A stretch of DNA of 64,000 nt from Bacteroidota bacterium (GCA_040386815.1 JAZKET010000034.1:61236-125235), one strand, 5' to 3'; counted from the stretch's first letter, positions 8,374 to 31,022 are shown. A program made the numbers and translations. Notes: a model not told the origin generated them from the letters alone.

Positions 8374-8392
8374 AATTGTAAATGGTAATTTA

Positions 8393-9244
8393 TTACTGTA
8401 CTGCCACGCGTTTCTGCGACATTAATTGAGCTACCACAGTTTTCAGTTTCTGTGGGTCTTTTGCATATTTTTCAAGATCAATGATCTCTATCTTTCTAAA
8501 ATCGGTAGGGTGGCTTTCGCTTTGGATAGATATGGTACCGCTTTTTATAAACGTTCCTTCTTTTTTGCCTTTCTCCGGGTCGGTTTGCGGTTTTTCATAA
8601 CGCATTACTTCCTCGCCATTAACGTAGTGTATTACCAGCGAATCTGCCAACACCAATAACTCTACACGTACCCATTGGTCGCCATCAAAGGTTTTTGATT
8701 TTGAGTCGGTACAATGCTGTGTGATGATCTTGCCATCGCGTTCAAACTGGGTACCGGGTGTACACAGGTTTGCTGTGCTGCGATTGCCTTTGCCGGTGCC
8801 GCCTAATAATTGCGCTTCCATAGAGTTAGGGAAATCCTGGTCCTTTTTCATGGTCGCCGGGTCTTGCCCGTGAAACATGATACCGTTGTTACGGAAAGCC
8901 CATCCCGGGCCACCCTTTACCTGGTCGCCAACAAAGCGATATTCGGCAGCTAAAAGGTAGTGCGAGTATGATTTTTTATAAAAAAGGTGACCGTAAGTTT
9001 CGTCAAACTTCTCGTACTCATCATAACGGTTTTCTAGCAGGCCATTTTCAACACGGAAGGTGTTTTTCCAGTTCTCACCATACTCGTGGTAACGTATTTT
9101 CGGTGTCCAGCCTTTAAGGTTTTTGCCGTTAAACAATTGCTCCCATTTAGGGTCGGCGGCGTTATTATTATTGTTTGAGTCGCCTGTGAAAGCAAGTAGT
9201 AAACCCGAGAACAAAAGCCCCGTTAGTTTTGCGTATTTATACAT
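8393..9244 (-). CDS. DUF1080 protein (3-keto-glycoside hydrolase/lyase-like)
   Basis: WEQLFNGKNLKGW, NNGI, SMEAQL, QWVRVE, GTISIQSE, FRKIEI. The likely start is MYKYAK; the ORF track extends to 9277. Confidence 0.88.
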   Translation of the reverse strand: MYKYAKLTGLLFSGLLLAFTGDSNNNNNAADPKWEQLFNGKNLKGWTPKIRYHEYGENWKNTFRVENGLLENRYDEYEKFDETYGHLFYKKSYSHYLLAAEYRFVGDQVKGGPGWAFRNNGIMFHGQDPATMKKDQDFPNSMEAQLLGGTGKGNRSTANLCTPGTQFERDGKIITQHCTDSKSKTFDGDQWVRVELLVLADSLVIHYVNGEEVMRYEKPQTDPEKGKKEGTFIKSGTISIQSESHPTDFRKIEIIDLEKYAKDPQKLKTVVAQLMSQKRVAVQ

Positions 9245-9436
9245 TGGTATGCTATAAATGATATGGGTATTGCACAAATAAATTGGTAAGGTAAACTTAC
9301 AATAATTTTATAATTAATTGATCTAAATGCATTGCCAGCGCTACTAAACTTTAGCGCAAACGTTTGCATACTGACGATATTATTAACTAAATTGCCATAT
9401 ATCTTTACAGCTTTCTATCATATCATCGCTTTTAGT

Positions 9437-9802
9437 ATGCAACACAACGCCAAATCCCTTCGTCCGTTTATAGGTGCAAAAGATTTTGAACTGTCGCGTG
9501 CCTTTTACCGCGACCTTGGTTTTACTGAAACTGCCCTCAGCGCAGACCTATCTGTATTTAAAACCGGCACTATGGCTTTTTACTTACAGGATGCCTACGT
9601 GAAAAACTGGATAGACAACACCATGCTATTTTTAGAAGTTGATGATGTAAGCCGCTTTTGGGATGATCTATCGGCACTTAACTTACCGGCAAAATATCCC
9701 GGCGTGCGCGCAACCCCACCACGAACACTGGAATGGGGGCGCGAATGCTTTTTGCATGATCCATCTGGAATATTGTGGCATTTTGGTGAGTTTAAGGGGT
9801 AA
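9437..9802 (+). CDS. VOC/glyoxalase family protein
   Basis: RPFIGAKDFELSRAFYRDLGF and EWGRECFLHDPSGILWHFG; ATG at 9437 preferred. Confidence 0.88.
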   Translation: MQHNAKSLRPFIGAKDFELSRAFYRDLGFTETALSADLSVFKTGTMAFYLQDAYVKNWIDNTMLFLEVDDVSRFWDDLSALNLPAKYPGVRATPPRTLEWGRECFLHDPSGILWHFGEFKG

Positions 9803-9838
9803 GCCAATTCTTTCAGCTTTGAAAGAATGGCCTTTTTA
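9803..9838. terminator. Bidirectional terminator
   Basis: GCCAATTCTTTCA-gctt-TGAAAGAATGGC followed by a T-run, between convergent genes. Confidence 0.65.
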
Positions 9839-9851
9839 TTACGTAGCACTA

Positions 9852-11441
9852 TCATCCCACTACAATCTCTTGTTTTACCCAAACCTGTTGTAAAAACCAT
9901 TCATCGTGCGATACCACCAACAGCGTACCCCTATAATCGGCAATGGCGGCAGTTAATATCTCTATGTTTTGCATATCAAGGTTGTTGGTAGGCTCGTCCA
10001 GTATGATCATATCTGGCGCTTGTTGGGCTATGGTAAGGCTGCACAGCATCAGGCGCATCTTTTCGCCGCCGCTTAAGGCATGGCAAGGTTTGTCCCAATC
10101 GTTCTTAGTAAATAAAAAACGATTAAGCCTTATCTTGATATCATGCTCTTGCAGTGCGCCGGTGTTATAGTGCTGCGCCTGTTGGTAAACTGTAAGGCTG
10201 TTATCTACCAGCGAATAATCCTGATCAATGTAGATAGCATTTACAGCCGCCAAATCAATACTACCCTGTTGTGATGGCATTTGCCCAAGAATCATTTTTA
10301 TCAGCGTGGTTTTGCCCGAACCATTTAAGCCCTTTATTGTTATCCTGTCGCCGCTATATATTTCAAAGCTTAAGCCTTCTTTCCAAAGCAAAACATCCCC
10401 ATAAATTACATTTACCGCATTTGCTTTAACCAAAGTTTTTCCTTTGTGCAATGCAGAGGTATCCAAATCAACTTTCATCTTATCCCCATCAGGCAAAGCA
10501 GAACGCAATTGCGAAAGCTGCTGCGATATGGCTTCAATCTTTCCGGTATGTATGCCTTTTATTTTTGAGGTACTGCGTTCGGCACTATTGCGCATAGTAT
10601 TCATCATAATAGCAGGCATGCCGGCTTTCTCCTGTTTCCTTTTGCCGCGCGCATCCAGCTTTTGCTGGCGTTCCACAGTTTCGCGTTCTACATCACGGGC
10701 CTTACGCAAGGCTTTTTCCTTGCTCTTTACATCAGCATTTAGCGCGTCGTGGGCAATAGCTTTTTGTTCGGCATAAAATTCATAATTACCGCCATATGTC
10801 GTTATCCCATTAGGTGCAAGCTCACAAACGGTAGCTAACAGGTTAAGCAAAGCGCGGTCATGACTTACCACCACCAACGTATTATTTGTATCCTTAATAT
10901 AGTTGTACAACATTTGCCGCCCCTGCCTATCCAGATGATTGCTTGGCTCATCCATCAAAACAATATCGGGCTTATGCAAATCAATGCCCGCCAAAAACAC
11001 TTTGGTTTTTTGCCCGCCACTTAGGGTGCCCATGCTTTCGTGAGGCGCCAAATCCATCAGCCCCCATTTGGCCAGGGCTGTTTGGCAACGTTCTTCAATG
11101 GTCCAATCGTCATTTAATGCGGCCATGGTTTCATCGCTTACATCGCCGTTTAAAATTTGGGCAAAGGCCTGTAATTTATCATCAATACCCAATGCCTGCG
11201 CAATAGTAACATGGTTATACTGACCAAAAATTTGTGGCACATAGTACGGCCGGGTATCGGTTTTAACCATGCCCGCAAACGGCACAAGCTCACCGGCCAT
11301 TAACTTTAAAAGCGTTGATTTTCCGGTGCCATTATTGCCTATTAAGGCTACTTTATTGTTTTTGTTGATGATGAGATCCAAACCACGGAAAAGCACATCA
11401 CGATTGGGGTGTATATAGGTAATATCCTGTAATAAAATCAT
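9852..11441 (-). CDS. ABC-F family ATPase (ribosome-associated, possibly ARE-type)
   Basis: Two ABC cassettes (GNNGTGKS, LSGGQ, DEPSNHLD, SHDR; GLNGSGKT, LSGGE, DEPTNNLD, SHDE) joined by a charged helical linker; no TM segments. Confidence 0.92.
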   Translation of the reverse strand: MILLQDITYIHPNRDVLFRGLDLIINKNNKVALIGNNGTGKSTLLKLMAGELVPFAGMVKTDTRPYYVPQIFGQYNHVTIAQALGIDDKLQAFAQILNGDVSDETMAALNDDWTIEERCQTALAKWGLMDLAPHESMGTLSGGQKTKVFLAGIDLHKPDIVLMDEPSNHLDRQGRQMLYNYIKDTNNTLVVVSHDRALLNLLATVCELAPNGITTYGGNYEFYAEQKAIAHDALNADVKSKEKALRKARDVERETVERQQKLDARGKRKQEKAGMPAIMMNTMRNSAERSTSKIKGIHTGKIEAISQQLSQLRSALPDGDKMKVDLDTSALHKGKTLVKANAVNVIYGDVLLWKEGLSFEIYSGDRITIKGLNGSGKTTLIKMILGQMPSQQGSIDLAAVNAIYIDQDYSLVDNSLTVYQQAQHYNTGALQEHDIKIRLNRFLFTKNDWDKPCHALSGGEKMRLMLCSLTIAQQAPDMIILDEPTNNLDMQNIEILTAAIADYRGTLLVVSHDEWFLQQVWVKQEIVVG

Positions 11442-20421: not shown

Positions 20422-21696
20422 TTAGTTAGCTAAAGGCGCGTCGTTATGCAGCGTTGAGGCTATAATATATGCCGCCACAGCAATGATCAACCCAAACATA
20501 AATATGTTATAAGCTACTCTTAAAAAGCGATACTTCCGGCCCAACACCACGCCCTGGCTGTATACGTCCTTTATCAGCGTGCCGTATAAAAAGCCTCGGT
20601 CATCCATCACTTTAAGCATGCCGGCGGTATACTCTTCCAACCCCATTTTATAAAAATTACCAAAGAATAGCAGGTTAACCTTTTTATCGTCAATATCCTG
20701 CGTAGTAAAAGTCCCTTCGGGGATAGCCGGGCGGGTAGCCAGTATCGAAAATATCATAGACAGCAAACTCACCGTCAGCAATATAAAACTCGGTATAGCC
20801 AGGAATGCGTTTTCCTCTAGCTTACGCAACACCAAACTGATAATGGCCGACAGGATAATAGAGTTAACCGTAATTAAAATATGAGCCTTATTATCGGCCA
20901 TATCGCTCAAGCGCTGGTTATTGCCCGATGTTATTCTGAACATGGTTTCAATGCCTTTGTCCGGCTTGTTTTTTTTCTCTTCTTTCTTTTTATCTTTTTT
21001 CTCGTCGGCAATAACTACTACCGGCACAGCTTGCACGGCAGCCTCGGTCTTGCTTTCTGCTTTGGTTTCCTTTGCAGCCTCTGGCTTATCTTCGGCAATG
21101 GTTTCCTGTTGTTTTTTCATTAGTTTGTCCAGGTTTTTTTTCTGCTGATCATGCAGTAACAACTGTGCGTAATCTGTAAAATAGGTATGTGTCTGTAGCA
21201 GCTCAATATTCTTCTGGCGCCAATGGTCCTTATCAATATCCAGGTGTTTTATAATATTAAACTCCTTGCGCAGCAGCTTGCTTTTGTCGGCAAAGTCATC
21301 GGTACCTAAATGGAACAGATCAGCATCGCACATAATTTGCTGCAGCTTACCGGTAGGTTTTTGAGGGATACGGGTGGCAAGAATACAATCATGCACTTTG
21401 GCAATTACCGCTTCATCAACCTTAAGGTGTTGTAAATGCGACACGGCCAGTTCGGCACCGGCAGCTTCGTGGTCGGCTTTGTCAATCAGGTAGCCAATAT
21501 CATGAAACCATGCGGCGGTTACCACCACAAAAAAATCTTCGTTGTTAAGCTGGTAATGGTTGGCAATTTGCGTGGCGGCGTCAACAACGCCTTTGGTATG
21601 TTCCAGATCATGGTACAGCAAATCGGCATCATGATGGCCGTCAAAATACCTTAAAACGTATTGCTTAACATCGCTTAATAATTGCTGATAATTCAT
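20422..21696 (-). CDS. HD-domain phosphohydrolase fused to a Pycsar-effector-like (PycTM/DUF5706) membrane domain
   Basis: HD motifs YHDLEHT, AWFHDIGY and DADLFHLG; charged linker; MADNKAHILITVN, NLLFFGNF and KYRFLRVAY with three TM helices. ATG 21696 is preferred over GTG 21720. Confidence 0.88.
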   Translation of the reverse strand: MNYQQLLSDVKQYVLRYFDGHHDADLLYHDLEHTKGVVDAATQIANHYQLNNEDFFVVVTAAWFHDIGYLIDKADHEAAGAELAVSHLQHLKVDEAVIAKVHDCILATRIPQKPTGKLQQIMCDADLFHLGTDDFADKSKLLRKEFNIIKHLDIDKDHWRQKNIELLQTHTYFTDYAQLLLHDQQKKNLDKLMKKQQETIAEDKPEAAKETKAESKTEAAVQAVPVVVIADEKKDKKKEEKKNKPDKGIETMFRITSGNNQRLSDMADNKAHILITVNSIILSAIISLVLRKLEENAFLAIPSFILLTVSLLSMIFSILATRPAIPEGTFTTQDIDDKKVNLLFFGNFYKMGLEEYTAGMLKVMDDRGFLYGTLIKDVYSQGVVLGRKYRFLRVAYNIFMFGLIIAVAAYIIASTLHNDAPLAN

Positions 21697-21721
21697 AGAA
21701 AAGGTGTTGGTGTTGCTCACC

Positions 21722-21729
21722 CAAATTTA
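21722..21729 (-). promoter_or_regulatory. -7 element TAAATTTG for the HD-PycTM/ppk1 operon
   Basis: Matches TAnnTTTG and implies a transcription start downstream of the GTG, supporting ATG 21696. No clear -33 box. Confidence 0.5.
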
Positions 21730-21841
21730 ATGTTTATATCTGTATTTTGTTTGGTGGATGGGTGTTTTTGTGGGATGAACGTTTAAACATATTTTAAAGA
21801 CGGTTTAAACCAAGCGATGTTACCTAACATATATTTCAGCA

Positions 21842-22019
21842 AGGCTGACCCAGAGGGTCAAAACCTTTGTAGCAAAAAAAGACAAAGCTGTTATGACCCG
21901 GAGGGTCTACCCTTAACGTAAGCATTGATCCCTGTAAAACCTGCACAACGGTAGCCCCGCTGGGGCAAAAAAGAAACTGTAAATTTTTCTACAAAGGTTT
22001 TGACCCTCCGGGTCAGCCT
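21842..22019. repeat. REP/REPIN-like element A (about 36-bp terminal inverted repeats)
   Basis: AGGCTGACCCAGAGGGTCAAAACCTTTGTAGCAAAA versus the reverse complement of TTTTTCTACAAAGGTTTTGACCCTCCGGGTCAGCCT (2 mismatches); internal TGACCCGGAGGGTC copy; GTAG motifs. Confidence 0.85.
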
Positions 22020-22043
22020 ATTATTGCGGTCCGGTATTATAAT

Positions 22044-22265
22044 AGGCGTGTTCGAAACATTTTAAAAGCGACTTTTAAAAGGCGTAGCCTCGACAAATAT
22101 TGTAGCCGCGGTTTTCAACCCGTGGTATACATCATCCATCGAAAGCGAGTGCCATCGGCACGGCCCGCATTATATGGATCGTGCCGATGGCACTCGTTTC
22201 TTGTGTTTGATTTTTTCGCCGGGTTGAAACCCGGCGCTACAATATGAGTCGAGCCGCTGGCTCTT
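22044..22265. repeat. REP-like element B, copy 1 (222 bp)
   Basis: Nested hairpins including GAGTGCCATCGGCACG...CGTGCCGATGGCACTC; near-identical to 22570-22791. Confidence 0.9.
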
Positions 22266-22273
22266 TATTTACG

Positions 22274-22541
22274 GCGGTCCTCGATTACAAATTCAGACCA
22301 CCTTCAGCCACTCTGCTGCTACCAAGCTGCTCCAGAGGAGCAAAATGTCGGTAGAAAAATCCTCTTAAATCTATATTTCGCGCCGTTAGGTGCGAAACTT
22401 AGGCGACCAACGAAACCCCTGATCATAGCGGATAAGTTATGTACCTACGGCACATATAAATTACTTTATATTATTTGCTACCGACATTAAACCCCTACGG
22501 GGTTATCTTCAAATGGCTAAGGGTGTTGATGTTATCGCTTC
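22274..22541. repeat. REP-like element C, copy 1
   Basis: AATGTCGGTAG...CTACCGACATT arms and CCCCTACGGGG; near-identical to 22887-23152. Confidence 0.9.
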
Positions 22542-22569
22542 GTTTTTATGTTAGTCGGGATTTATAATC

Positions 22570-22791
22570 AGGCGTGTCCGAAACATTTTAAAAGCGACTT
22601 TTTAAGAGGCGTAGCTTCGACAAATATTGTAGCCACGGGTTTTAACCCGTGGTATTTGTAATCTATAGAAGATGGAGTGCCATCGGCACGGCCCATTTAA
22701 ATGGATCGTGCCGATGGCACTCTGTTTTGTGTTTAATTTTTTCGCCGGGTTAAAACCCGGCGCTATAATATGTGTCGAGCCGCTGGCTCTT
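22570..22791. repeat. REP-like element B, copy 2
   Basis: Direct repeat of 22044-22265 with scattered substitutions. Confidence 0.9.
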
Positions 22792-22886
22792 ATTTTCAAT
22801 TTGCAAGGTTTCGAACACTCCTGATTTGCAATCCGTGTATCCCAAAGAATAAAATCACGGCCCGGGATTACAAATTCCCACTTACC

Positions 22887-23152
22887 GCGGTCCGCGATTA
22901 CAAATCCGAACCAACTTCATGACTCTGCTGCTACCAAGCTGCTCCAGCGGAGCAAAATGTCGGTAGAAAAATCTCCCACATCTATATCCCGCGCCGTTAG
23001 GTGCGAAACTTAGGCGACTAACGAAACCCTTGATCATAGCGGATAAGTTATGTACCTACGGCACATATAAATTGCTGATATTATTTGCTACCGACATTAA
23101 ACCCCTACGGGGTTACCTTCAAGATGGGTAAGAATGTTAATGTTATTGCTTC
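22887..23152. repeat. REP-like element C, copy 2 (end overlaps the CHAT stop codon)
   Basis: Direct repeat of 22274-22541. Confidence 0.88.
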
Positions 23153-25766
23153 ATTTGTCTACGGATAACAAGCCATCCCCCCAAACCGAACACAATCGCC
23201 GCAATAGCAATTTGCAAAGGCACCCACGAATTTGCCGCCGGCAAATTCACCACCTCATCTGCCCCGGTTAACACCAGCGTATCCCAATAATATGGCAGGT
23301 ACAATGCATCGGCAGACTGCGCATGGTTTAGCCAGTTCAGCTTGGCATTGTGCAGGGCGGCAGCTGTGCTTTGGCTCTTCGTTAAACCCGCGTACATATC
23401 CGCCGTAATGCGCGCCACCGCATCGTCATTAACATTCCATAACCCCGATACCGTGGCCGCGGTACCTATAGCTATAAAACCACGCGACAGGCTGATAATA
23501 CCCTCGCCTTGTGCCAATGTGCCGTCGCCGGTGCGGCAGGCGCTTAGCACTACCAGGTTAGGCTTACGGGAACGCGCCAGCAGTTCAAACAAAAACAGTT
23601 TTTCTTTACCAAAATCAAGCGTAGGTTCATGGTTGGGGCCAGATAGGTAGGCGTGCGTGCTGATGTGCAGGGCAGCCGAATTTTCAAACGACTTAAAAAA
23701 CGAAACAGTATTTACGTCGTCATCATACAAATAATTGCCTTCAACCAATTTCTCAATAGCGGCCGACTCCTGTTTTACGGCCATAATGGGTTTATCGTCG
23801 GCACTGTTATGCGTCATAAACAAACCGCTAAAACTGCCATTGTATTTAATGAGAAAGCGTAACTCACAGTTAACTGCCTGATAAGGTAGGGCCATAGCGA
23901 CGGGGCGGGTTGAAACTTGCTATCGGTTATCAAGCCATCAAAAGACAAATAACCCAAAACATCATCAGGCACAATGCACAGTTTTTCATTTTTCTTTAGG
24001 GCGATATTTGCAAACAGCGTTTTATAAATAGCGTTCGACTGTTGAAAAAACACCTTAGGCGCGTTCACCATTCCAGCCGGACCATTACGATAAAAGGTAT
24101 CTACAAAACCGGTTACCTGCTTGCGGAATTGTTTTGCCCCATCTATGCGGTTAATTGCCCACGCCGACCGGTTTTTAACTTCAATAACATACAAAGCTTC
24201 CGCCCCGAAAAAGAACTCCAATACATGCGCATCAACAGGCAATTTCTTCAATATTTCATCTGCCGATGCTACCGAACCAACGGCCGTTTCACGATATTTT
24301 TTATTGAGCAGGGCCAAATCAAACTTCAAGGCATCTATCTTTTTTTGATATTCGGCCGGGTTGTTTTCCGTCATCATCAAACGCTCATTATAGCTAATGG
24401 CGCGTTCCATATCCAGCTTGCGACGCAGGGCTGCGTCGTTCTTGCCAGCCGCCAGGTTGTGGTAGGTTTTCTGTAGGTCATCTGCCAGCGTACGCGCCTT
24501 GGTTTGTTCGCTCACCGCTAATATCAGGTTTAGATATTTTGGCTGTTTGGTTTGCGCGTAAAGGTTGTAGGCTATTTCAATGGTTTCTTCGGCCAGTTCT
24601 TTTCCCTCTTTTTGCAGGCGTTCCTTGGTTTTATTGTCGGCAAATTCCTTGCGCATTTTATCAGTAGCCAACAGCGCATAGCGCATGTTTTCAAGCGCCA
24701 AAGCAGGCTGCTTTAGCGCCATGTAGGTAAGCGCCTTTTCATGGAAGATGTCAACCAGCTTATTCTCGCCATAAATTTTGTTTGCCGGGGTGATGTTCTG
24801 CACTGTGTTAATGCGCATAATCTGCAACGCGCTGTTTAAACAATTTAGCGCGTTTTGCCATTGCCCCTGTAAACGACATATCTTACCCAGTTGTGTAGTC
24901 AGATAGGCTTTTTCGCGCTGCCTGCCGTCAGCATAATATTTGTTAAGCAATTGCAGCGCTGTTTTAAACTCAGCTTGCGACTTATTTAGCTGGTTGGACT
25001 GCAAATAAATATTACCCAACGTAGTGTGGCTGCCCGTTAAACCATAAGCAGTTTCGCTGTCTATATTTTTTCGTGTAGCGATGTTTTTAATAAGCAGGGC
25101 TTCGGCTTGCTTTAACTCATTTTTTTGGAGCAGTATATCGGCCAGGGTATTATTCAGATTAAACCGTACTTGTGGGTCTTGCACCAGTGCCAGTCCTTTA
25201 GCTACACTTTCCCCGGCGTCATCATATCGCTCAATATTGTAGTATGATATGGCCACGTTGCTGTACAGGGCGGCTACCTTATCGGCCTCGGCAGTTTTGT
25301 TAAGCGCCGCAATGGTGTTTTGCTGTATAAAAATAGCCCGCTCATAATCGCCAAGGCGGGCGTAGTTATTGCCCAGCGGCTTTACTATGTATTCGGCAAA
25401 ATCAAACGCCGCCACGTTATGCTTTTTATAAAACGAATAAGCATCCTCATAACTGTTGATAGATTGCAAAATGTCGCCGGCCTGTAGTTGGTTATAGCCC
25501 TGGGTGGTTAGCAAGGTAAGCCAGGCTATTTGTTCATCGGCAGTCTTGGGTTGTCGCCAGGCTTGTTTGCGGGTGTCTGTTAAAAACGATTGCTGATTGG
25601 GATTAGCATTTGCGTAATCAATGTTGGCGTACAGCCATTCGGTTAAATTGTCCTGTTTTTTTAGCCCATTTAATATAGATTTTTTCGGATTTTTCTGGGC
25701 AAAACTCTGCAAACTGCAAAAGAACAGGCAAAAAAAAAGGCTGATTTTCCTAGGATTGATGAGCAT
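23143..25766 (-). pseudogene. TPR-CHAT (caspase-like) protease split by a frameshift near 23840
   Basis: ORF 25784/25766-23814 has a signal peptide, TPRs and the start of CHAT (IVPDDVLGYLSFDGL). ORF 23895-23143 has the rest, with catalytic LHISTHA and VVLSAC, SLW-like SGLWNV, PYYW and a C-terminal TM helix. The two frames overlap by 82 bp. Confidence 0.8.
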
Positions 25767-25820
25767 TGGCAGGATGTACGGCAATGCTAAAATAGGGAAT
25801 TTTCGCCAGTAAACGCGGGG

Positions 25821-25975
25821 GACTCACCCGGTCGACGCTTCGCTGGACCACCCTCTCTGCGCAAGCGCAAAGAGGGTTTGGAGAGTTTTATAAATAATCT
25901 TTCTAAATCAAAAAAGCCCTCTTTCAGACGAAGTCGAAGAGAGGACAGCGCGAGCGAAGCAATACGCGGGTGAAT
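25821..25975. repeat. Long imperfect hairpin repeat upstream of the CHAT gene
   Basis: Nested arms TCACCCG/CGGGTGA, GCTTCGCT/AGCGAAGC and CCTCTCT/AGAGAGG. Confidence 0.65.
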
Positions 25976-26218
25976 TGTCGCCTCCATATCGTCGCTTTTA
26001 CCAAATTTTGGTGATTCACGCCAACTGTTTCGCTCAGTTTTTAGCATAAGCATCAAAAATCTATAACTATCTAAACAACAATACCTTAGTCCTGTAATCT
26101 TAAAGCTTTACTGCTGTTACAAACTGTTTCACTCTATTTCATAAAACAATGACATACAGTCATTTAAATAAAAACACTGTTTCATTTGTTTCACTTTTAT
26201 TGTAAATAAAACACCTTG

Positions 26219-28216
26219 CTAAAACTTCCACGTTACGTACGTACTCGCGTTTGACGTACCCGACTTAGGATCATAAAAATACCTGAAACCAACAGACGGC
26301 CCTACCCTAACCAAGCCTACCACCACATCGGCAAAACCGGTGGCACGCACGTCTGTAAAGGTTTTGGTGATGTCTTGATTCAGGGCCTCGTAATTGCCGT
26401 TGGCCGTGCCGTTAGCACCCATCAGGGTGTAGTTGATGTTGTTTTTTAAGCGGGTACTGATGTCAACCGCCAACAGCGCGCCTACCCCTGCACCGATATA
26501 CTTGTTAAAGTTGTAGCGCAGCGATACAGGCACAATATTGATGGTTGTCACCTTGGTCGACGTGGTTTGCGTACGACCGGTGATAATATAGTTCTGCTTA
26601 CCGATGGTAGTATCCTTACGTATATTATTGACTGACCGTGTGTCTGATATCTCCTTGAAATCACTCAGGTAAATCTCGGCCTGCAGGTACTTGCCAAACG
26701 GCGAATAAGGCGCTATACTGGCCCCCAACACAATGTTGCGTTGCGTGATATAGCTGCTGCCTTTGGATTGTAACGGAAAGCCTATCCCCACAATAGCACC
26801 CGGCGACAACCCCATTTTGAACCTGCCGGCCGCACGATTGGTGTAGATGGGTTCGTTCTTGTCAAACACAATATCGGCACTGGTAAAGATGGGCAGCTTT
26901 GGTGGTTTCTCTTTAAACTTGATCTTGTACTCAACAAAACCCTGGGTCGAGTCGGCATCATTAACGCCGTCTTGCTGGGTGCCCGGCAAGTATATGTTGT
27001 TAAATATAAAGTGTACGCTATCTTTACCGGTCACCGTATTCATATAGCTTTGGTTAGCATAAGCCGCGGTACCCACCGGCACTGCAGGCTTGGTGTTGCT
27101 CACCACAATGGTTGTTGGATCAAACACCGGCGACAGGCTCACCCCTATATCCACCTTCTTGGCCGGCCCCTTGCCGGTGTTTTGAAAGCGTACTTTGTAG
27201 GTAATCTCGCGATTTTGGCCGGTCAATCTGTAGTTCATTCTCGATTTCCGGATAGACATCTTATTAGGATCATGCGATGCCACGATCTGCAATTCCATGC
27301 TAAACAGCTCACGCTCAACGGCTGGATCATCCGGGATAAAAACACCCGTCAGGCGTACAGTGGCGTTGGTGTCCTGTATCATCTCGGGCGTTGTCTTAAA
27401 GTGCATAAACACAAACTGCTCTGCCCCTGCCTTAAGGTTTTCAAAGTGCCAGGCCTGCTTGCTTTTAAAATTCTGCATCTCGGCACCAATGGCTGCGGCT
27501 TCTTTGGCCAGCAGGGCTTCGATCTCTGCTTTGCTTATGCCATAGCTAGTCGAGGCATAGTACACGGCCTGCTGCTTGTTCATCGCATTAGCTAACACCG
27601 GTTCGGCTTTCAACTCTGTCTTTGTTTCCTGGTGATAGGTGCGGGTTTCGGCCAACTCGAAGTTGTCGCTGCTAAACTCCCTATCGTTATATAAAATGGC
27701 GATGGTGCCGCTTATGGTTTGCTTCAAATTCTCGGGTTTGTTGCGGTACCCCATAATCATCATCATGTCGTCGCCGGGCTTGGGCATGCAGTTGTTCTTT
27801 AACCCTACGCTGCCGCCCATCTTAAAAAATCCTGGAATAGGTGCCGCCGCCAGCATCGCTTTTGGCGCTTTAACAACTACCGGTTTAGGGCGGGTTGGCG
27901 GGCGCTTGCCATCGTCATAGTTATTGGTGGCAAAAAGGCGTACATCAAACTTGCCGCTGTCCAGGTAGGTATGCAAAGGGTCTTTCTCAAAGCTGAATGT
28001 ACCATCGCCAAACTCCCATAAATATGTGTAAAATGGGGCAGGCGCGCCGGCAACACCACGCAGGGGGCGCAGCTCTGAGCTAAACTTAGCCTGGCTGCTA
28101 TCAAGCGTATGGTTAATAATAGCGGGAACGGTATCTGCCGGAATAAGTGCGGGTTTATCTTGAGCATGTAATTGCATAGCTATGCAAACAAATGCAAGGG
28201 CAAGGAGCTTTCTCAT
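26219..28216 (-). CDS. PKD-domain exported protein with Ig-like repeats and a C-terminal outer-membrane beta-barrel
   Basis: Signal peptide; PKD motif YLWEFGDG...HTY; YKVRFQNTG and GFVEYKIK repeat-domain motifs; amphipathic C-terminal strands ending YVTWKF. Confidence 0.8.
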   Translation of the reverse strand: MRKLLALAFVCIAMQLHAQDKPALIPADTVPAIINHTLDSSQAKFSSELRPLRGVAGAPAPFYTYLWEFGDGTFSFEKDPLHTYLDSGKFDVRLFATNNYDDGKRPPTRPKPVVVKAPKAMLAAAPIPGFFKMGGSVGLKNNCMPKPGDDMMMIMGYRNKPENLKQTISGTIAILYNDREFSSDNFELAETRTYHQETKTELKAEPVLANAMNKQQAVYYASTSYGISKAEIEALLAKEAAAIGAEMQNFKSKQAWHFENLKAGAEQFVFMHFKTTPEMIQDTNATVRLTGVFIPDDPAVERELFSMELQIVASHDPNKMSIRKSRMNYRLTGQNREITYKVRFQNTGKGPAKKVDIGVSLSPVFDPTTIVVSNTKPAVPVGTAAYANQSYMNTVTGKDSVHFIFNNIYLPGTQQDGVNDADSTQGFVEYKIKFKEKPPKLPIFTSADIVFDKNEPIYTNRAAGRFKMGLSPGAIVGIGFPLQSKGSSYITQRNIVLGASIAPYSPFGKYLQAEIYLSDFKEISDTRSVNNIRKDTTIGKQNYIITGRTQTTSTKVTTINIVPVSLRYNFNKYIGAGVGALLAVDISTRLKNNINYTLMGANGTANGNYEALNQDITKTFTDVRATGFADVVVGLVRVGPSVGFRYFYDPKSGTSNASTYVTWKF

Positions 28217-28277
28217 AATAGCAGGCGTATTGGCAGGTATTGTGAATTAAAGATAAAGTTAAAATTGTAAACAACAC

Positions 28278-28310
28278 AAATAGCGATGAGTTTGAAACCC
28301 ATCGCTATTT
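28278..28310. terminator. Intrinsic terminator after the 28329-29330 lipoprotein gene
   Basis: AAATAGCGATG / CATCGCTATTT 11-bp inverted repeat. Confidence 0.7.
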
Positions 28311-28328
28311 ATTTGATTAACTGATGTT

Positions 28329-29330
28329 TTAGTAGTTATCTAAGCTATTGATTGATGCTTGTACCGCAGCCTGAGTAGTTTCGGCCAAAGTTAAAGTTAC
28401 ATTTTGGCTGGCTGATATGGTGGTTACCTGCTCTGCATAATAGTATTTACCATCTTTGATAGAGAATGAGATAAACTTACCTTCAACACCCACCGGCATT
28501 ACGTTGTCATAACTTTTTACACTGTTAGGACCTGCAATGGTATACAGTTGAGCAACTACGTTAGCACCTTTAGCGCAGAAGTAAACATAAGTTTCGCCGC
28601 TGTATGAGTAGAATGAAGCAAGGGCGCCTGGGTTGTTAACCAAACTAACAGTTACCGTAGTTTTAGGGTTATTATAGCTATAGAAGATATCGGTATTTAC
28701 CCAGCCGGTTGTGCCAAAACTAAAGGTAAAAGTGTTATTTACGCTGGCAACTTCTTTACCACCACCCTGGCCATTAGCGCCCTGACGCGGTGCAGCCCAT
28801 GCCATTTGCGCATCCTGACCTTCAACCAATGGTTTGCCGCCCTGGTCTACACCTTCCCATAGCTGGGTTACACCATCGCGTTTAGCCGGTATGGCAATTT
28901 CCATTGGGGCGCCCAGGTTACGGTCGACACTTACACCTTCAGATTTTACATCTACATATATAAAACCGTCTGATGCCAGGGGCGCGCCGCTAATGTGATT
29001 GGTATTGCTACCCAGCATCATTACCGAGCTGCGTTTTAAAACTTCTATAACTTGCACATCAACCGGGCCAGTTACTGCTACACCGTTAATTTTTAATGAG
29101 CCCGGGGCAAAGGTAATTTTGGTACCGCCTTTAAATGTTGCTGTTTGTGGCAGGCTTGAGGCGTTAATTTTCACAGTTTGTACTTTAGGGCCATTGTTCT
29201 TTAAAAAATCCCTTGAGGTAGCATCCGGGTTGATCCTTACAAAAGGTGATTTCTGATCTTTAGTGCATGATACTAATGATAATGCTAATAATGCTACTGC
29301 TGCTACTGAGGTTAAAATTGACTTTTTCAT
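28329..29330 (-). CDS. Hypothetical lipoprotein
   Basis: LVSC lipobox then TKDQ; conserved-looking SDGFIY and GWVNTD; beta-rich. Confidence 0.8.
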   Translation of the reverse strand: MKKSILTSVAAVALLALSLVSCTKDQKSPFVRINPDATSRDFLKNNGPKVQTVKINASSLPQTATFKGGTKITFAPGSLKINGVAVTGPVDVQVIEVLKRSSVMMLGSNTNHISGAPLASDGFIYVDVKSEGVSVDRNLGAPMEIAIPAKRDGVTQLWEGVDQGGKPLVEGQDAQMAWAAPRQGANGQGGGKEVASVNNTFTFSFGTTGWVNTDIFYSYNNPKTTVTVSLVNNPGALASFYSYSGETYVYFCAKGANVVAQLYTIAGPNSVKSYDNVMPVGVEGKFISFSIKDGKYYYAEQVTTISASQNVTLTLAETTQAAVQASINSLDNY

Positions 29331-29409
29331 GATTTCTGGTTTTTATGTTTTTTATTGCTTACTCTGTTTTGGCTTTTCAGCATCTGCCGTTTTTATCGTT
29401 GTTTGTAGG

Positions 29410-29438
29410 TATATCAGCGGCAGCTAAACTTTGTTACC
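29410..29438 (-). promoter_or_regulatory. Putative ECF-sigma promoter GGTAAC-N17-GATATA
   Basis: Reverse strand reads GGGGTAACAAAGTTTAGCTGCCGCTGATATACC, about 80 nt upstream of the lipoprotein ATG and divergent from the ECF gene; AAC-containing -35 with a 17-nt spacer. Confidence 0.5.
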
Positions 29439-29520
29439 CCCTTATCTGAAAAAAAATTAAAAATATTTTCATTTAGTGCTGTTTTAGCTATAAAAAAACA
29501 TCAGTAACAATAAAAATTAT

Positions 29521-29625
29521 GGCGTTGCCTGCGGCCCAGGCTGTCCGTTTATACGCCTGCAGGCATTAGGCGCGGCCGGCGCTGAGGCCCTCGCGTGGCC
29601 GGTATTCACTGCCATCCTTAACGCG
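29521..29625. repeat. GC-rich structured element (dispersed repeat or ncRNA) in an AT-rich intergenic region
   Basis: Abruptly GC-rich block bounded by GCGTT...AACGC, with several short complementary arms. Confidence 0.45.
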
Positions 29626-29697
29626 GCCAGCGCGCATCCACATTGGCCGATATCAAACCATTAAAAAATTATTTGTATTTTCAAGCCACCTATTTTA

Positions 29698-30251
29698 TGA
29701 CAAAAGCACCTCACCCAGACCAGCGCTACATTACCGCATTGTTAAACAATGAGGTAGCCGTTATTGACGAGGTTTATAAAAGCAGTGCCCGCCAGGTTAA
29801 ATCATACATATGCTTTAATAATGGCAATGAGGATGACGCTGCCGATATTTTTCAGGAAGCTTTAATAGATATATACAACCAGGCAAAAAACAAAGGCCTG
29901 CAGCTTACCTGCCCCTTTAATGCTTTTGTTTTTATGGTGTGTAAGCGCAAATGGTTTAATGAATTAAAAAAAAGATCATTATTACCGGTAACAAATAACG
30001 AGAACGATTTATTACATAGCAGCGAGGATACTTTTGCCTTAGCCGAAGAACTGGAGCAGCAGACAGAGCAACAAAATAAGTTTTTAGCTGCCTTTGAGAA
30101 ATTGGGCGACAGGTGTAAAGAAATTATCGAATGGAGCATGAAAGGCGAAGCGCAGGAAAAAGTGGCCGAAGCTATGGGTGTTACTTACGGGTACCTGCGC
30201 AAAAAGAAATCGGAGTGTATGGCTTCGCTAATTAAATTGGTTCAATCGTAA
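29698..30251 (+). CDS. ECF (sigma-70 family) RNA polymerase sigma factor
   Basis: Region 2 DDAADIFQEAL and CKRKWFNEL; region 4 LGDRCKEII...EKVAEAMGVTYGYLRKKKSEC; ATG 29698 preferred. Confidence 0.92.
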
Positions 30252-30266
30252 AATAGAAATAAGGCA

Positions 30267-31022
30267 ATGGAAGAGGATAGCATTTTACAGGCATCGCGGT
30301 ATGTTGATGGAGAGATGGATGCGCAGGAGCAGCAGCAGTTTGAATTGCTGTTACAAACCGACGTACAGCTTAATGAATATGTAGCGCAATATCAGCAGGC
30401 AACGGCTGCCCTTAAAGCACACTTTGCGCCCGATGAAAACCGTAATGCGCTTAAACAAACCATAGTCACTTTAAATGCCGAATACTTTAAGCCTGAGGCT
30501 AAAGTGGTATCTATGAAACCACCGTCAAAAGTAATGTCGTTCAATAACTACGTCCGTTGGGCATCGGGCATTGCAGCCTTATTGTTAGTGGGCTTATTGA
30601 TATTTAACCCATGGCGCAAAAGTTTGTATGATGAGTATAATACCGCTACCACCATGTCCATATCAGAACGGGGCGCGGGTGCGCAAACCAACCTGGAGAA
30701 AGCTGCATCGTTTTATAACAATAAAGATTTTAATAGTGCAGAGCCATTACTGGCAAAAGAATATACAACCGATACAGATAACAGCCTGGTTGCCTATTAT
30801 TATGCCATAACACTTGTACAAGATGGAAAAACGGCAAAAGGACGTGATATATTAGAAAGTTTGTATAAAGGAGAGTCTGCCTTTAAATATGATGCGGCTT
30901 ATCAGGTGGCATTAAGCTTCGTAAAAGAGAAAAATAATACCGAAGCTAAAAAATGGTTAGCACTGGTGCCTGCAGGCACATCAAACCACGTTAAGGCCCA
31001 AGAGTTAAGCAAGAAATTGTAA
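30267..31022 (+). CDS. Putative anti-sigma factor: N-terminal anti-sigma helix bundle, single TM, periplasmic TPR domain
   Basis: RYVDGEMDAQEQQQFE (zf-HC2-like, Cys-free); TM WASGIAALLLVGLLIF; TPR-like YYYAITLV and AAYQVALSF; 15 bp after the sigma gene. Confidence 0.8.
   Translation: MEEDSILQASRYVDGEMDAQEQQQFELLLQTDVQLNEYVAQYQQATAALKAHFAPDENRNALKQTIVTLNAEYFKPEAKVVSMKPPSKVMSFNNYVRWASGIAALLLVGLLIFNPWRKSLYDEYNTATTMSISERGAGAQTNLEKAASFYNNKDFNSAEPLLAKEYTTDTDNSLVAYYYAITLVQDGKTAKGRDILESLYKGESAFKYDAAYQVALSFVKEKNNTEAKKWLALVPAGTSNHVKAQELSKKL

What the first reader, a model, noticed from the sequence alone, without database searches (positions are those of the whole stretch)
23143..31022. Caspase-like (CHAT) protease / ECF sigma / TM-TPR anti-sigma: candidate trans-envelope proteolytic signalling cascade
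Seen: the reconstructed CHAT protein has a cleavable signal peptide, TPRs, His (STHA) and Cys (LSAC) catalytic residues and a C-terminal TM anchor, so the protease faces the periplasm. The divergent sigma gene is followed by a single-TM anti-sigma with a periplasmic TPR domain. Between them lie a PKD/beta-barrel outer-membrane protein and a lipoprotein. Established: ECF anti-sigmas are released by regulated proteolysis, and in type III-E CRISPR the CHAT protease Csx29 cleaves the sigma-binding Csx30. Inference: this is a CRISPR-independent analogue, in which an outer-membrane sensor activates a periplasmic TPR-CHAT that cleaves the anti-sigma and releases the ECF sigma.
Basis: partly seen in the sequence, partly recalled or inferred. 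Interest (0 to 1): 0.8.

Follow-up and report, generated by a model that had tools for sequence, protein, structure and literature searches.

The report
Split ECF sigma / periplasmic CHAT module
A gene set conserved in soil Bacteroidota pairs a sigma factor and its membrane inhibitor with an exported caspase-like protease, an outer-membrane barrel protein and a lipoprotein; it looks like a split form of the Myxococcus DdvA/DdvS switch, but here the protease gene is broken.

Summary

- **Conservation:** The same arrangement recurs in about 60 of 79 related loci from Sphingobacteriaceae and Chitinophagaceae. In 151 family genomes the sigma and the barrel protein occur in the same 20, and each of these carries a TPR-CHAT gene.
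- **Promoter:** A strongly conserved ECF-type promoter (GGGGTAACA-N16-TGATATA, window 29410-29438) precedes the lipoprotein gene. A terminator-like hairpin follows that gene. The same promoter drives an unlinked secreted repeat protein.
- **Anti-sigma:** Its most conserved residue is an Arg (E-R-G) in the linker between the membrane helix and the TPR domain.
- **Protease:** The model of an intact orthologue matches Csx29, DdvA and separase.
- **Closest known system:** DdvA/DdvS of Myxococcus, an anti-sigma fused to a periplasmic TPR-CHAT, fits better than type III-E Csx29/Csx30.

Cleavage of the anti-sigma by CHAT remains an inference (about 0.3). In this window the CHAT gene is split by a roughly 31-nt out-of-frame deletion and repeat elements have entered the locus, so the protease arm is probably dead here. 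Sequencing reads could not be checked.

This scan has noted sigma/anti-sigma/TPR-CHAT triads on other DNA many times. The DUF7849-barrel subtype had not been noted.

The parts
23814..25784 (-). TPR-CHAT protease gene, N-terminal piece (656-aa ORF; likely ATG at 25766). It encodes the signal peptide, the TPR superhelix and the first half of the CHAT domain, and ends at a premature stop after the frame break.
   Evidence: Pfam TPR families. Intact homologues are about 880-930 aa. Alignment A1.
23143..23895 (-). TPR-CHAT protease gene, C-terminal piece in another frame. It holds the catalytic His (23653-23655), the catalytic Cys (23536-23538) and the C-terminal TM anchor with a basic tail (about 23157-23226).
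   Evidence: Pfam CHAT 1.7e-28. His and Cys are invariant in alignments A2 and A4. Coordinates.
23833..23840 (-). Site of the frame break. The window has 8 nt here where intact relatives have 36-39 nt, a net loss of about 31 nt that is not a multiple of three.
25790..26210 (.). Two dispersed repeat elements (MITE-like, dozens of copies in the genome) inserted between the barrel gene and the CHAT gene. Relatives have only 10-150 nt here.
   Evidence: blastn against the window's own genome; gene spacing in relatives
26219..28216 (-). Exported protein with a PKD domain, further Ig-like sandwiches (DUF7619) and a C-terminal beta-barrel of about 12 strands (DUF7849, about 26219-26812). It ends in WKF.
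   Evidence: Pfam DUF7849 2.2e-54, DUF7619 4.6e-20, PKD. AlphaFold model with pLDDT 79.6. Foldseek hits to adhesin Ig-repeats and to OmpA-short 9fzc_A. C-terminal F in 62 of 83 orthologues.
28276..28312 (-). Terminator-like hairpin with a 17-bp stem, directly after the lipoprotein stop codon.
   Evidence: Non-homologous strong hairpins sit at the same place in 34 of 54 loci.
28329..29330 (-). 333-aa lipoprotein of unknown family; the probable direct output of the sigma factor.
   Evidence: Lipobox. No Pfam, NCBIfam or PDB relative. More than 280 homologues, all unnamed.
29356..29390 (-). DUF805b RNA motif (Rfam RF02914) in the 5' leader of the lipoprotein gene.
   Evidence: 39.2 bits against a gathering score of 35.6. 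Conserved in most Sphingobacteriaceae loci. Not specific to the module: found in 90 of 151 family genomes.
29410..29438 (-). ECF-type promoter: GGTAACA, a fixed 16-nt spacer, then TGATATA, with a conserved CAAA a few bases downstream.
   Evidence: 63 loci carry it, 61 with identical overall length. The flanking GG, T, A and CAAA positions are conserved although the search pattern did not require them.
29513..29633 (.). GC-rich dispersed repeat of about 115 nt (at least 20 copies in the genome), inserted between the promoter region and the sigma gene.
29697..30251 (+). ECF sigma factor, 184 aa from the ATG.
   Evidence: TIGR02937 4.8e-17, above the cut-off. It is the most conserved gene of the module (83-85% identity within Mucilaginibacter). 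Start set by alignment with relatives.
30267..31022 (+). Single-pass anti-sigma factor: a cytoplasmic anti-sigma domain without zinc ligands, a TM helix (30552-30623), a conserved linker with an invariant Arg in E-R-G (30666-30674), and a periplasmic TPR domain.
   Evidence: NF052375 2.9e-7, below its cut-off. One TM in 70 of 71 orthologues. Alignment A5. R-G present in 70 of 71. TPR profile hit to MamA at 5.8e-6.

Best explanation
This is a conserved envelope signalling module of soil Bacteroidota, and it works like a split version of Myxococcus DdvA/DdvS.

**Proposed mechanism**
- The ECF sigma factor is held at the inner membrane by its single-pass anti-sigma. The anti-sigma's periplasmic TPR domain blocks intramembrane proteolysis.
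- A separately encoded TPR-CHAT cysteine protease is exported and tethered to the inner membrane by a C-terminal helix. Together with its constant partner, the outer-membrane-anchored Ig-repeat/barrel protein, it forms the trigger arm.
- On an unknown periplasmic signal, the protease most likely cuts the anti-sigma in the conserved linker next to the membrane. The candidate site is the invariant Arg in E-R-G.
- After that cut, an RseP-type protease frees the sigma.
- The sigma then reads GGTAACA-N16-TGATATA promoters. These drive the neighbouring lipoprotein gene, with some read-through into the barrel-CHAT genes, and an unlinked secreted PIGGIVVKGG-repeat protein.

**Shown here**
- gene content, synteny and genome-level co-occurrence
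- predicted topologies and folds
- conservation of the promoter and of the linker motif

**Inferred**
- that this sigma reads this promoter
- that CHAT contacts and cuts the anti-sigma
- the signal itself

In this particular genome the protease gene is broken by an out-of-frame deletion. The catalytic half has no export signal, so the trigger arm is probably dead and the pathway is probably locked.
For: **Conservation and co-occurrence**
- The order antisigma<-sigma | lipoprotein->barrel->CHAT is found in about 60 of 79 loci from two orders.
- In 151 family genomes the sigma orthologue and the barrel protein occur in exactly the same 20 genomes. Thirteen of these have a close CHAT, and the other seven have a diverged TPR-CHAT right after the barrel gene.
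- Where the genes are not adjacent, the missing partners lie elsewhere in the same genome.
- One genome keeps only a divergent CHAT/anti-sigma-like pair, with no sigma orthologue and no barrel gene.

**Topology and catalysis**
- Signal peptide plus C-terminal TM and basic tail are present in essentially all CHAT orthologues. The anti-sigma has one TM in 70 of 71.
- The His/Cys dyad is kept in every intact orthologue.
- The CHAT orthologue model (pLDDT 86, pTM 0.83) matches Csx29 (7.7e-14), DdvA 8rw5/8rot (1e-13 to 2e-12) and separase.
- DdvA is an anti-sigma fused to a periplasmic TPR-CHAT and is proposed to cut its own linker before RseP acts (PMC11506125).

**Anti-sigma linker**
- Apart from the start Met, only R135, N151 and L247 are invariant in the anti-sigma alignment. 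R135 is the only one in the linker, about 20 residues past the TM and just before the TPR domain.

**Promoter and regulon**
- The promoter is conserved with fixed spacing in 63 loci.
- The same motif sits before an unlinked secreted protein in this genome and in the one same-genus genome that has the module.
- In a diverged subgroup the barrel-CHAT pair lacks the motif, while neighbouring genes carry it. In most loci a hairpin separates the lipoprotein gene from the barrel-CHAT genes. CHAT is therefore not simply an output.
Against: - No experiment or complex prediction links CHAT to the anti-sigma; AlphaFold-Multimer was not on hand.
- The proposed self-cleavage of DdvA is itself unproven: dyad mutants had no phenotype without a signal (PMC11506125).
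- In Chitinophaga loci without the lipoprotein gene, the sigma-type promoter sits directly before barrel-CHAT. There CHAT is at least partly an output.
- Barrel and CHAT stay together when separated from sigma/anti-sigma (Pelobium, Pedobacter arcticus). This fits the barrel protein as the protease's main partner or substrate.
- The conserved Arg could instead cap the TPR fold.
- An earlier check in this scan, on a related triad, priced 'protease cuts anti-sigma' at only 9%.
- In this window CHAT is broken while the other four genes are intact.
Confidence: 0.35

Rival explanations
1. Output only. The sigma/anti-sigma pair senses its signal through the anti-sigma TPR domain and through general envelope proteases. 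The lipoprotein, the barrel protein and CHAT are the response. CHAT then processes the barrel protein, the lipoprotein or foreign periplasmic proteins, and does not touch the anti-sigma.
For: - The conserved ECF-type promoter lies upstream of the lipoprotein-barrel-CHAT side, and directly before barrel-CHAT in Chitinophaga loci that lack the lipoprotein.
- The sigma gene itself has no such motif: 1 relaxed hit in 71 loci.
- Barrel and CHAT are tightly coupled, often with overlapping genes, and stay together when moved away from sigma/anti-sigma.
Against: - Exported TPR-CHAT genes recur next to ECF sigma/anti-sigma pairs with changing accessory genes. That pattern is typical of regulators rather than outputs (scan notes, which are unchecked leads; DdvA fusion).
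- In the diverged subgroup, barrel-CHAT lacks the promoter motif while other neighbouring genes have it.
- A hairpin follows the lipoprotein gene in most loci.
- One genome keeps only CHAT plus an anti-sigma-like gene.
Confidence: 0.3
2. CHAT and the barrel protein modulate the pathway without cutting the anti-sigma, or they act negatively. For example, the CHAT TPR arm could bind and shield the anti-sigma TPR domain (as RseB or MucB do), or CHAT could destroy the inducing signal. Loss of CHAT would then switch the pathway on.
For: - Both proteins carry TPR domains in the same compartment.
- Lipoproteins and periplasmic partners in ECF operons often damp signalling. This rests on established knowledge of RseB, MucB and CseA and was not tested here.
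- The window keeps intact sigma, anti-sigma, barrel and lipoprotein genes although CHAT is broken.
Against: - The catalytic His and Cys are kept in every intact orthologue, so proteolysis is under selection.
- No direct evidence exists for binding.
Confidence: 0.15
3. The frame break in CHAT is an assembly or sequencing artefact, and the organism has an intact protease gene.
For: The genome is a 175-contig draft and reads could not be inspected.
Against: - The difference from relatives is a loss of about 31 nt, not a single-base slip in a homopolymer.
- The protein collection holds the same truncated 650-aa product for this contig (P0001).
- The locus also carries three repeat-element insertions that relatives lack. 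This fits a locus under relaxed selection.
Confidence: 0.1

Closest known systems
DdvA/DdvS of Myxococcus xanthus (PMC11506125; PDB 8rot, 8rw5)
   Same: - An ECF sigma with a single-pass anti-sigma.
- A TPR-CHAT with a His/Cys dyad on the periplasmic side of the inner membrane.
- A linker between the TM helix and the TPR region, proposed as the cut site before RseP acts.
- Fold match of the orthologue model to DdvA at 1e-13.
   Different: - Here the TPR-CHAT is a separate protein with its own signal peptide and C-terminal anchor, not the C-terminus of the anti-sigma.
- The anti-sigma domain has no CHCC zinc site.
- An outer-membrane barrel protein and a lipoprotein belong to the module.
- The regulon is a lipoprotein and a secreted repeat protein, not a CBASS/CRISPR island.
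- The sigma shows no autoregulatory promoter.
- The hosts are Bacteroidota rather than Myxococcota.
Type III-E Craspase: Cas7-11, Csx29 (TPR-CHAT), Csx30, Csx31, CASP-sigma
   Same: - A TPR-CHAT protease genetically linked to an ECF-type sigma and to a sigma-binding inhibitor.
- Csx29 is the best fold match (8eey_B, 7.7e-14).
   Different: - Craspase is cytoplasmic and triggered by RNA-guided target binding. This protease is exported.
- No CRISPR array or tandem repeat array is present in the 64-kb window.
- The sigma scores only 21 bits against the type III-E sigma model, whose cut-off is 100.
Regulated intramembrane proteolysis of RseA (DegS then RseP) releasing sigma-E
   Same: A single-pass anti-sigma whose periplasmic domain must be removed by a site-1 protease before site-2 cleavage. 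This is the logic of the proposed mechanism.
   Different: The site-1 protease would be a dedicated clan CD cysteine protease encoded in the module, not a PDZ serine protease. None of these steps is shown here.
Trans-envelope signalling: FecA/FecR/FecI, and SusC-like/anti-sigma/ECF pairs of Bacteroides
   Same: An outer-membrane barrel protein is encoded next to an ECF sigma/anti-sigma pair, which suggests a signal relayed across the periplasm.
   Different: - The barrel is a small DUF7849 barrel of about 12 strands with Ig-like passenger domains, not a 22-strand TonB-dependent transporter.
- The anti-sigma has a TPR domain, not a FecR domain.
- A protease is part of the set.
ECF54 group (Actinobacteria)
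   Same: CHAT-domain proteins are conserved in the genomic context of an ECF group, and proteolytic control has been proposed (PMC8999054).
   Different: - ECF54 lacks an anti-sigma factor and belongs to another phylum.
- No relation to this sigma was tested.

Membership tests
DdvA/DdvS-type anti-sigma with periplasmic TPR-CHAT | TPR-CHAT domain fused to the anti-sigma polypeptide | tested here: not met
   The anti-sigma (251 aa) and the TPR-CHAT (about 880 aa in relatives) are separate genes on opposite strands in all loci.
DdvA/DdvS-type anti-sigma with periplasmic TPR-CHAT | Zinc-binding CHCC anti-sigma domain | tested here: not met
   The aligned N-terminal domain has no conserved Cys or His positions (alignment A5).
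DdvA/DdvS-type anti-sigma with periplasmic TPR-CHAT | TPR-CHAT with a His/Cys dyad located in the periplasm, next to an ECF sigma and a single-pass anti-sigma | tested here: met
   Signal peptide plus C-terminal TM in orthologues. Dyad invariant. Fold match to 8rw5 and 8rot. In the window itself the gene is frame-broken.
DdvA/DdvS-type anti-sigma with periplasmic TPR-CHAT | RseP-dependent degradation once the periplasmic domain is removed | not testable with these tools
   This needs immunoblots of truncated anti-sigma in strains depleted of RseP.
Type III-E Craspase system | Genetic association with Cas7-11 and a CRISPR array; cytoplasmic protease | tested here: not met
   No tandem array in the window. 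The protease has an export signal. The sigma scores 21 bits against a cut-off of 100 for NF041236. No PADLOC hit.
CHAT peptidase (Pfam PF12770, clan CD) | Pfam match above the gathering score, with catalytic His and Cys | tested here: met
   100.4 bits against a cut-off of 24 on the C-terminal piece. STHA and LSAC are present.
CHAT peptidase (Pfam PF12770, clan CD) | One intact reading frame joining the export signal, TPR and catalytic domain | tested here: not met
   Two overlapping ORFs in different frames; 8 nt where relatives have 36-39. Not checked against reads.
ECF (group 4) sigma factor | Regions sigma-2 and sigma-4 only, a match above the family cut-off, and an adjacent anti-sigma gene | tested here: met
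   TIGR02937 62.1 bits against a cut-off of 42.9. 184 aa. The anti-sigma starts 16 nt after the sigma stop here and overlaps it in many loci.
ECF (group 4) sigma factor | Autoregulation: its own promoter motif upstream of the sigma gene (common, not universal) | tested here: not met
   A relaxed motif was found upstream of the sigma in 1 of 71 loci.
Outer-membrane beta-barrel protein | Signal peptide, C-terminal antiparallel barrel, aromatic last residue | tested here: met
   DUF7849 2.2e-54. The model shows about 12 long strands at residues 469-664. OmpA-short hit. The protein ends in WKF. Which side of the membrane the Ig-like passenger faces is not determined.
Rfam DUF805b RNA | Covariance-model score above the gathering score | tested here: met
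   39.2 bits against 35.6, full length 1-35.

The most novel reading that the evidence does not exclude
A dedicated caspase-like protease, exported and tethered to the inner membrane, acts in trans as the site-1 protease of an ECF anti-sigma factor. It cuts at an invariant Arg-Gly next to the membrane when an outer-membrane Ig-repeat/barrel partner reports a signal. This would be a trans-envelope proteolytic cascade in Bacteroidota. It would also be the experimentally accessible, split counterpart of the still unproven DdvA self-cleavage model.
Probability: 0.25. Interest if true: 0.75.

Novelty: new variant of a known kind. Interest (0 to 1): 0.5.

Why it matters
ECF sigma factors are the largest class of bacterial alternative sigma factors. 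For most of them, neither the site-1 protease nor the signal is known.

The only studied anti-sigma with a periplasmic caspase-like domain is DdvA. Its trigger is unknown and its self-cleavage is unproven, partly because protease and substrate are one polypeptide.

In this module the protease and the putative substrate are separate proteins. The module also offers:
- a defined candidate cut site;
- a sharply defined promoter that could serve as a reporter;
- a small regulon;
- carriers among cultured Pedobacter, Mucilaginibacter and Chitinophaga strains.

That would make the hypothesis directly testable. It would also give a first functional context to DUF7849 and DUF7619 proteins and to an unnamed lipoprotein family.

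The copy in this window is a poor model, because its protease gene is broken.

Tried and rejected
2. **Sequence search of the CHAT profile against PDB.** It found only TPR proteins. The relation to Csx29, DdvA and separase appears only at fold level.
3. **Lipoprotein function.** Nothing was found in Pfam, NCBIfam or PDB, and all homologues are unnamed. There is only a faint hint of a BT_3987/DUF1735-like N-terminal domain.
4. **Is the DUF805b leader specific to this module?** No. It occurs in 90 of 151 family genomes, often in several copies.
5. **Is the sigma autoregulated from the same motif?** This was not found. The motif-like sequence inside the sigma ORF of Chitinophagaceae codes for the conserved P-V-T-K..D-D linker. 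It was not pursued as an internal promoter.
6. **Is this a known defence system?** There are no significant PADLOC hits. The HD-PycTM neighbour is syntenic only in the closest relative.
7. **First alignment for the locus search.** It failed because it contained the two gene pieces and was redone with full-length proteins only.
8. **Third strict promoter hit in the genome (C113).** It lies inside an efflux-pump gene on the other strand and was discarded as chance.
9. **Complex prediction.** Predictions for sigma/anti-sigma, CHAT/anti-sigma and CHAT/barrel could not be run, because the tool folds single chains only.

Full report
**What is there.**
On the minus strand the window carries three things in a row:
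- a lipoprotein gene (28329-29330);
- a gene for a PKD/DUF7619/DUF7849 protein (26219-28216);
- a TPR-CHAT gene split into two overlapping ORFs (23814-25784 and 23143-23895).

Divergent from these are an ECF sigma gene and, 16 nt after its stop, a 251-aa single-pass protein with an anti-sigma-like N-terminus and a TPR C-terminus.
- The sigma passes the TIGR02937 cut-off (62.1 against 42.9 bits).
- Alignment with relatives puts its start at the ATG at 29697, not the upstream TTG.

- a signal peptide ending SFA-Q;
- TPRs;
- His in STHA and Cys in LSAC;
- a C-terminal hydrophobic helix followed by RRQMKQ.

**The frame break.**
More than 100 homologues of about 880-930 aa exist in Mucilaginibacter, Pedobacter, Chitinophaga and relatives. 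Aligned with them, the window reads correctly up to SLNT in one frame and from FSGL onward in another.
- Only 8 nt (23833-23840) lie between those points, where the relatives have 36-39 nt.
- This is a net loss of about 31 nt, not a one-base slip.
- The catalytic half has no export signal of its own, so an active periplasmic protease cannot be made from this sequence.
An assembly artefact therefore keeps about 0.1.

Dispersed repeat elements also sit in the locus at places where relatives have short spacers:
- between the barrel and CHAT genes;
- between the sigma gene and the promoter region;
- downstream of CHAT.

**Synteny and co-occurrence.**
A scan of one genome per species gave 79 loci with a relative of the protease. 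A tblastn of the window's proteins against them shows the order antisigma<-sigma | lipoprotein->barrel->CHAT in about 60. These cover Sphingobacteriaceae and Chitinophagaceae.

Some Chitinophaga loci lack the lipoprotein gene. Where the set looked incomplete, the missing genes were elsewhere in the same genome:
- Nubsella and one Pedobacter have sigma, anti-sigma, lipoprotein and barrel together, with CHAT 10-20 kb away.
- Pelobium has sigma, anti-sigma and lipoprotein at one site and barrel plus CHAT at another.

In an even draw of 151 genomes of the family:
- The sigma orthologue and the barrel protein are found in exactly the same 20 genomes.
- Thirteen of these have a close CHAT.
- The other seven have a more diverged TPR-CHAT of 844-884 aa directly after the barrel gene.

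One further genome (97% complete) has only a CHAT gene divergent from an anti-sigma-like gene, with no sigma orthologue and no barrel gene. The module is patchy. Only 1 of 7 same-genus genomes in that draw, and none of 24 in another draw, carry it.

**Topology and folds.**
- Nearly all CHAT orthologues have an N-terminal signal sequence (a lipobox in the diverged subgroup) and a C-terminal TM helix with a basic tail. The body therefore faces the periplasm.
- The catalytic His and Cys are kept in all intact orthologues.
- The anti-sigma has exactly one TM helix in 70 of 71 orthologues.
- The model of the barrel protein (pLDDT 79.6) shows a string of Ig-like sandwiches, which resemble adhesin stalk domains. 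It also shows a C-terminal barrel of about 12 strands, with a hit to OmpA-short. The protein ends in an aromatic residue in most orthologues.
- The model of the nearest intact CHAT orthologue (pLDDT 86, pTM 0.83) matches Csx29 (7.7e-14), DdvA (1.1e-13) and separase. Sequence profiles alone do not find these.

**Promoter, leader and transcription units.**
About 100 nt upstream of the lipoprotein gene lies GGGGTAACA, a spacer, then TGATATA.
- The motif is present in 63 loci, 61 of them with identical overall length.
- Positions that my search pattern did not require are also conserved, while the spacer varies freely. This is the signature of an ECF-type promoter.
- A strict scan of the window's own genome finds two other hits. 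One is inside an efflux-pump gene and is taken as chance.
- The other is 28 nt upstream of a 160-aa secreted protein with PIGGIVVKGG-like repeats, and it matches the extended consensus.
- The one same-genus genome that has the module carries a homologue of that protein behind the same motif.
- The sigma gene itself has no such motif.

The lipoprotein leader matches Rfam DUF805b above threshold. That RNA motif is common throughout the family and is not specific to this module.

Directly after the lipoprotein stop comes a 17-bp hairpin. Unrelated strong hairpins occupy the same place in 34 of 54 loci. The lipoprotein is therefore probably its own sigma-dependent unit, with at most partial read-through into barrel-CHAT.

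In the diverged subgroup, the short spacer between the sigma and barrel-CHAT genes lacks the motif. There the motif precedes a neighbouring protein gene of about 590 aa and lipoprotein genes. In Chitinophaga loci without the lipoprotein, the motif sits directly before the barrel gene.

**The anti-sigma linker.**
Apart from the start Met, only three residues are invariant in the alignment of 33 anti-sigmas. One of them is R135, within E-R-G. It lies about 20 residues beyond the TM helix and just before the first TPR helix. R-G is present in 70 of 71 orthologues. The one exception is a paralogue with no sigma partner. Separase and metacaspase-type clan CD enzymes cut after Arg (established knowledge; separase motif cited in PMC11506125). 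This makes it a concrete candidate cut site, but it is no more than that.

**Comparison with what is known.**
The literature search found DdvA/DdvS of Myxococcus xanthus. DdvA is a transmembrane anti-sigma whose periplasmic part is a TPR-CHAT. It is proposed, not shown, to clip its own linker before RseP acts. It is reported only from Myxococcota and one Comamonas (PMC11506125).

The present module has the same parts on two polypeptides. It adds an outer-membrane barrel protein and a lipoprotein, and it controls a different regulon. It fails the defining DdvA features of fusion and a zinc anti-sigma domain, so it is not a member of that family. The most economical reading is still that it works in the same way.

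Type III-E Csx29/Csx30 shares the fold and the logic of a protease, a sigma inhibitor and a sigma. It differs in being cytoplasmic and CRISPR-bound. There is no repeat array in the window, and the sigma does not match the type III-E sigma model.

A review notes CHAT proteins near actinobacterial ECF54 sigmas (PMC8999054). The ECF reclassification paper does not mention CHAT in its main text.

**Weighing the mechanism.**
I rate about 0.85 that this is a real module in which the sigma drives the GGTAACA-N16-TGATATA regulon.

Four observations favour CHAT acting on the anti-sigma:
- the DdvA fusion;
- strict co-occurrence;
- the lone CHAT/anti-sigma pair;
- the conserved linker Arg.

Two observations remove the objection that CHAT is merely an output: the hairpin after the lipoprotein gene, and the subgroup in which barrel-CHAT has no motif.

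Three things count against. There is no direct evidence, the barrel-CHAT pair is tightly coupled, and an earlier check in this scan priced the same step at 9% on a related triad.

I put the full chain, including cleavage, at about 0.35, and cleavage at the Arg-Gly site at about 0.25. The output-only reading gets 0.3.

**Relation to earlier scan findings.**
The scan has noted ECF sigma/anti-sigma/exported TPR-CHAT triads on other DNA many times: 481 notes in at least 393 genomes. These usually name DdvA as the closest known system. None mentions DUF7849, so this subtype is an addition, not a first sighting of the kind. It is defined by the barrel partner, the lipoprotein output and the promoter described here.

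**Verdict.**
This is a new variant of a known kind. Interest is moderate (0.5). The module is well defined and testable in cultured relatives, but the class has been seen repeatedly in this scan, the key step is unproven, and this copy has a broken protease gene.

Noticed in passing
window 29356-29390 (-): The 5' leader of the lipoprotein gene is a full-length DUF805b RNA motif (Rfam RF02914, 39.2 bits). It is the only copy found in this genome. The motif is common in the family (90 of 151 genomes) and its function is unknown. In one genus two tandem copies lie in the same intergenic region.
   Followed up: partly
own genome contig C68:44741-45279 (outside the window; locus L111): A second perfect copy of the sigma-type promoter lies 28 nt before a 160-aa secreted protein with PIGGIVVKGG-like repeats. 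In the one same-genus genome that has the module, a homologue sits behind the same motif (L112, about 1206-1743). This is probably a second regulon member.
   Followed up: partly
window 25790-26210, 29513-29633 and 21721-23142: Several families of short dispersed repeats (MITE-like, about 115-200 nt, tens of copies across the 175 contigs) occupy intergenic spacers in and around the module. One separates the sigma gene from the shared promoter region. Two separate the barrel gene from the CHAT gene.
   Followed up: partly
loci L071, L075, L077-L087 (Chitinophagaceae), inside the sigma ORF, e.g. L082 about 6200-6228 (-): A sequence matching the promoter motif lies inside the sigma coding region. 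It codes for the P-V-T-K...D-D linker between sigma-2 and sigma-4, and the same codons are used across genera. It may be a coding coincidence or an internal promoter for the anti-sigma.
   Followed up: no
loci L103-L107 (diverged subgroup), e.g. L103 9530-11377: In this subgroup the promoter motif is absent before barrel-CHAT. It precedes a convergent gene for a secreted protein of about 590 aa, and it precedes lipoprotein genes, one of which has a DUF805b-like leader (L105, 855-1782).
   Followed up: partly
locus L109 (genome G075) 6465-10078: A 918-aa TPR-CHAT gene lies divergent from an anti-sigma-like TM-TPR gene that still has the E-R-G linker. The genome has no sigma orthologue (best hit 28% identity) and no DUF7849 barrel gene.
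   Followed up: partly
locus L035 12608-14560: Two anti-sigma-like TM-TPR paralogues lie convergent with the CHAT gene. One has an anti-sigma domain but no R-G linker motif; the other has no anti-sigma domain. No sigma gene lies next to this module.
   Followed up: no
window 20422-21720 (-): An HD phosphohydrolase fused to a Pycsar-type PycTM domain (PF18967, 8.6e-35) lies downstream of the module, followed by ppk1. It is syntenic only in the closest relative (L009), so it is not part of the module.
   Followed up: no
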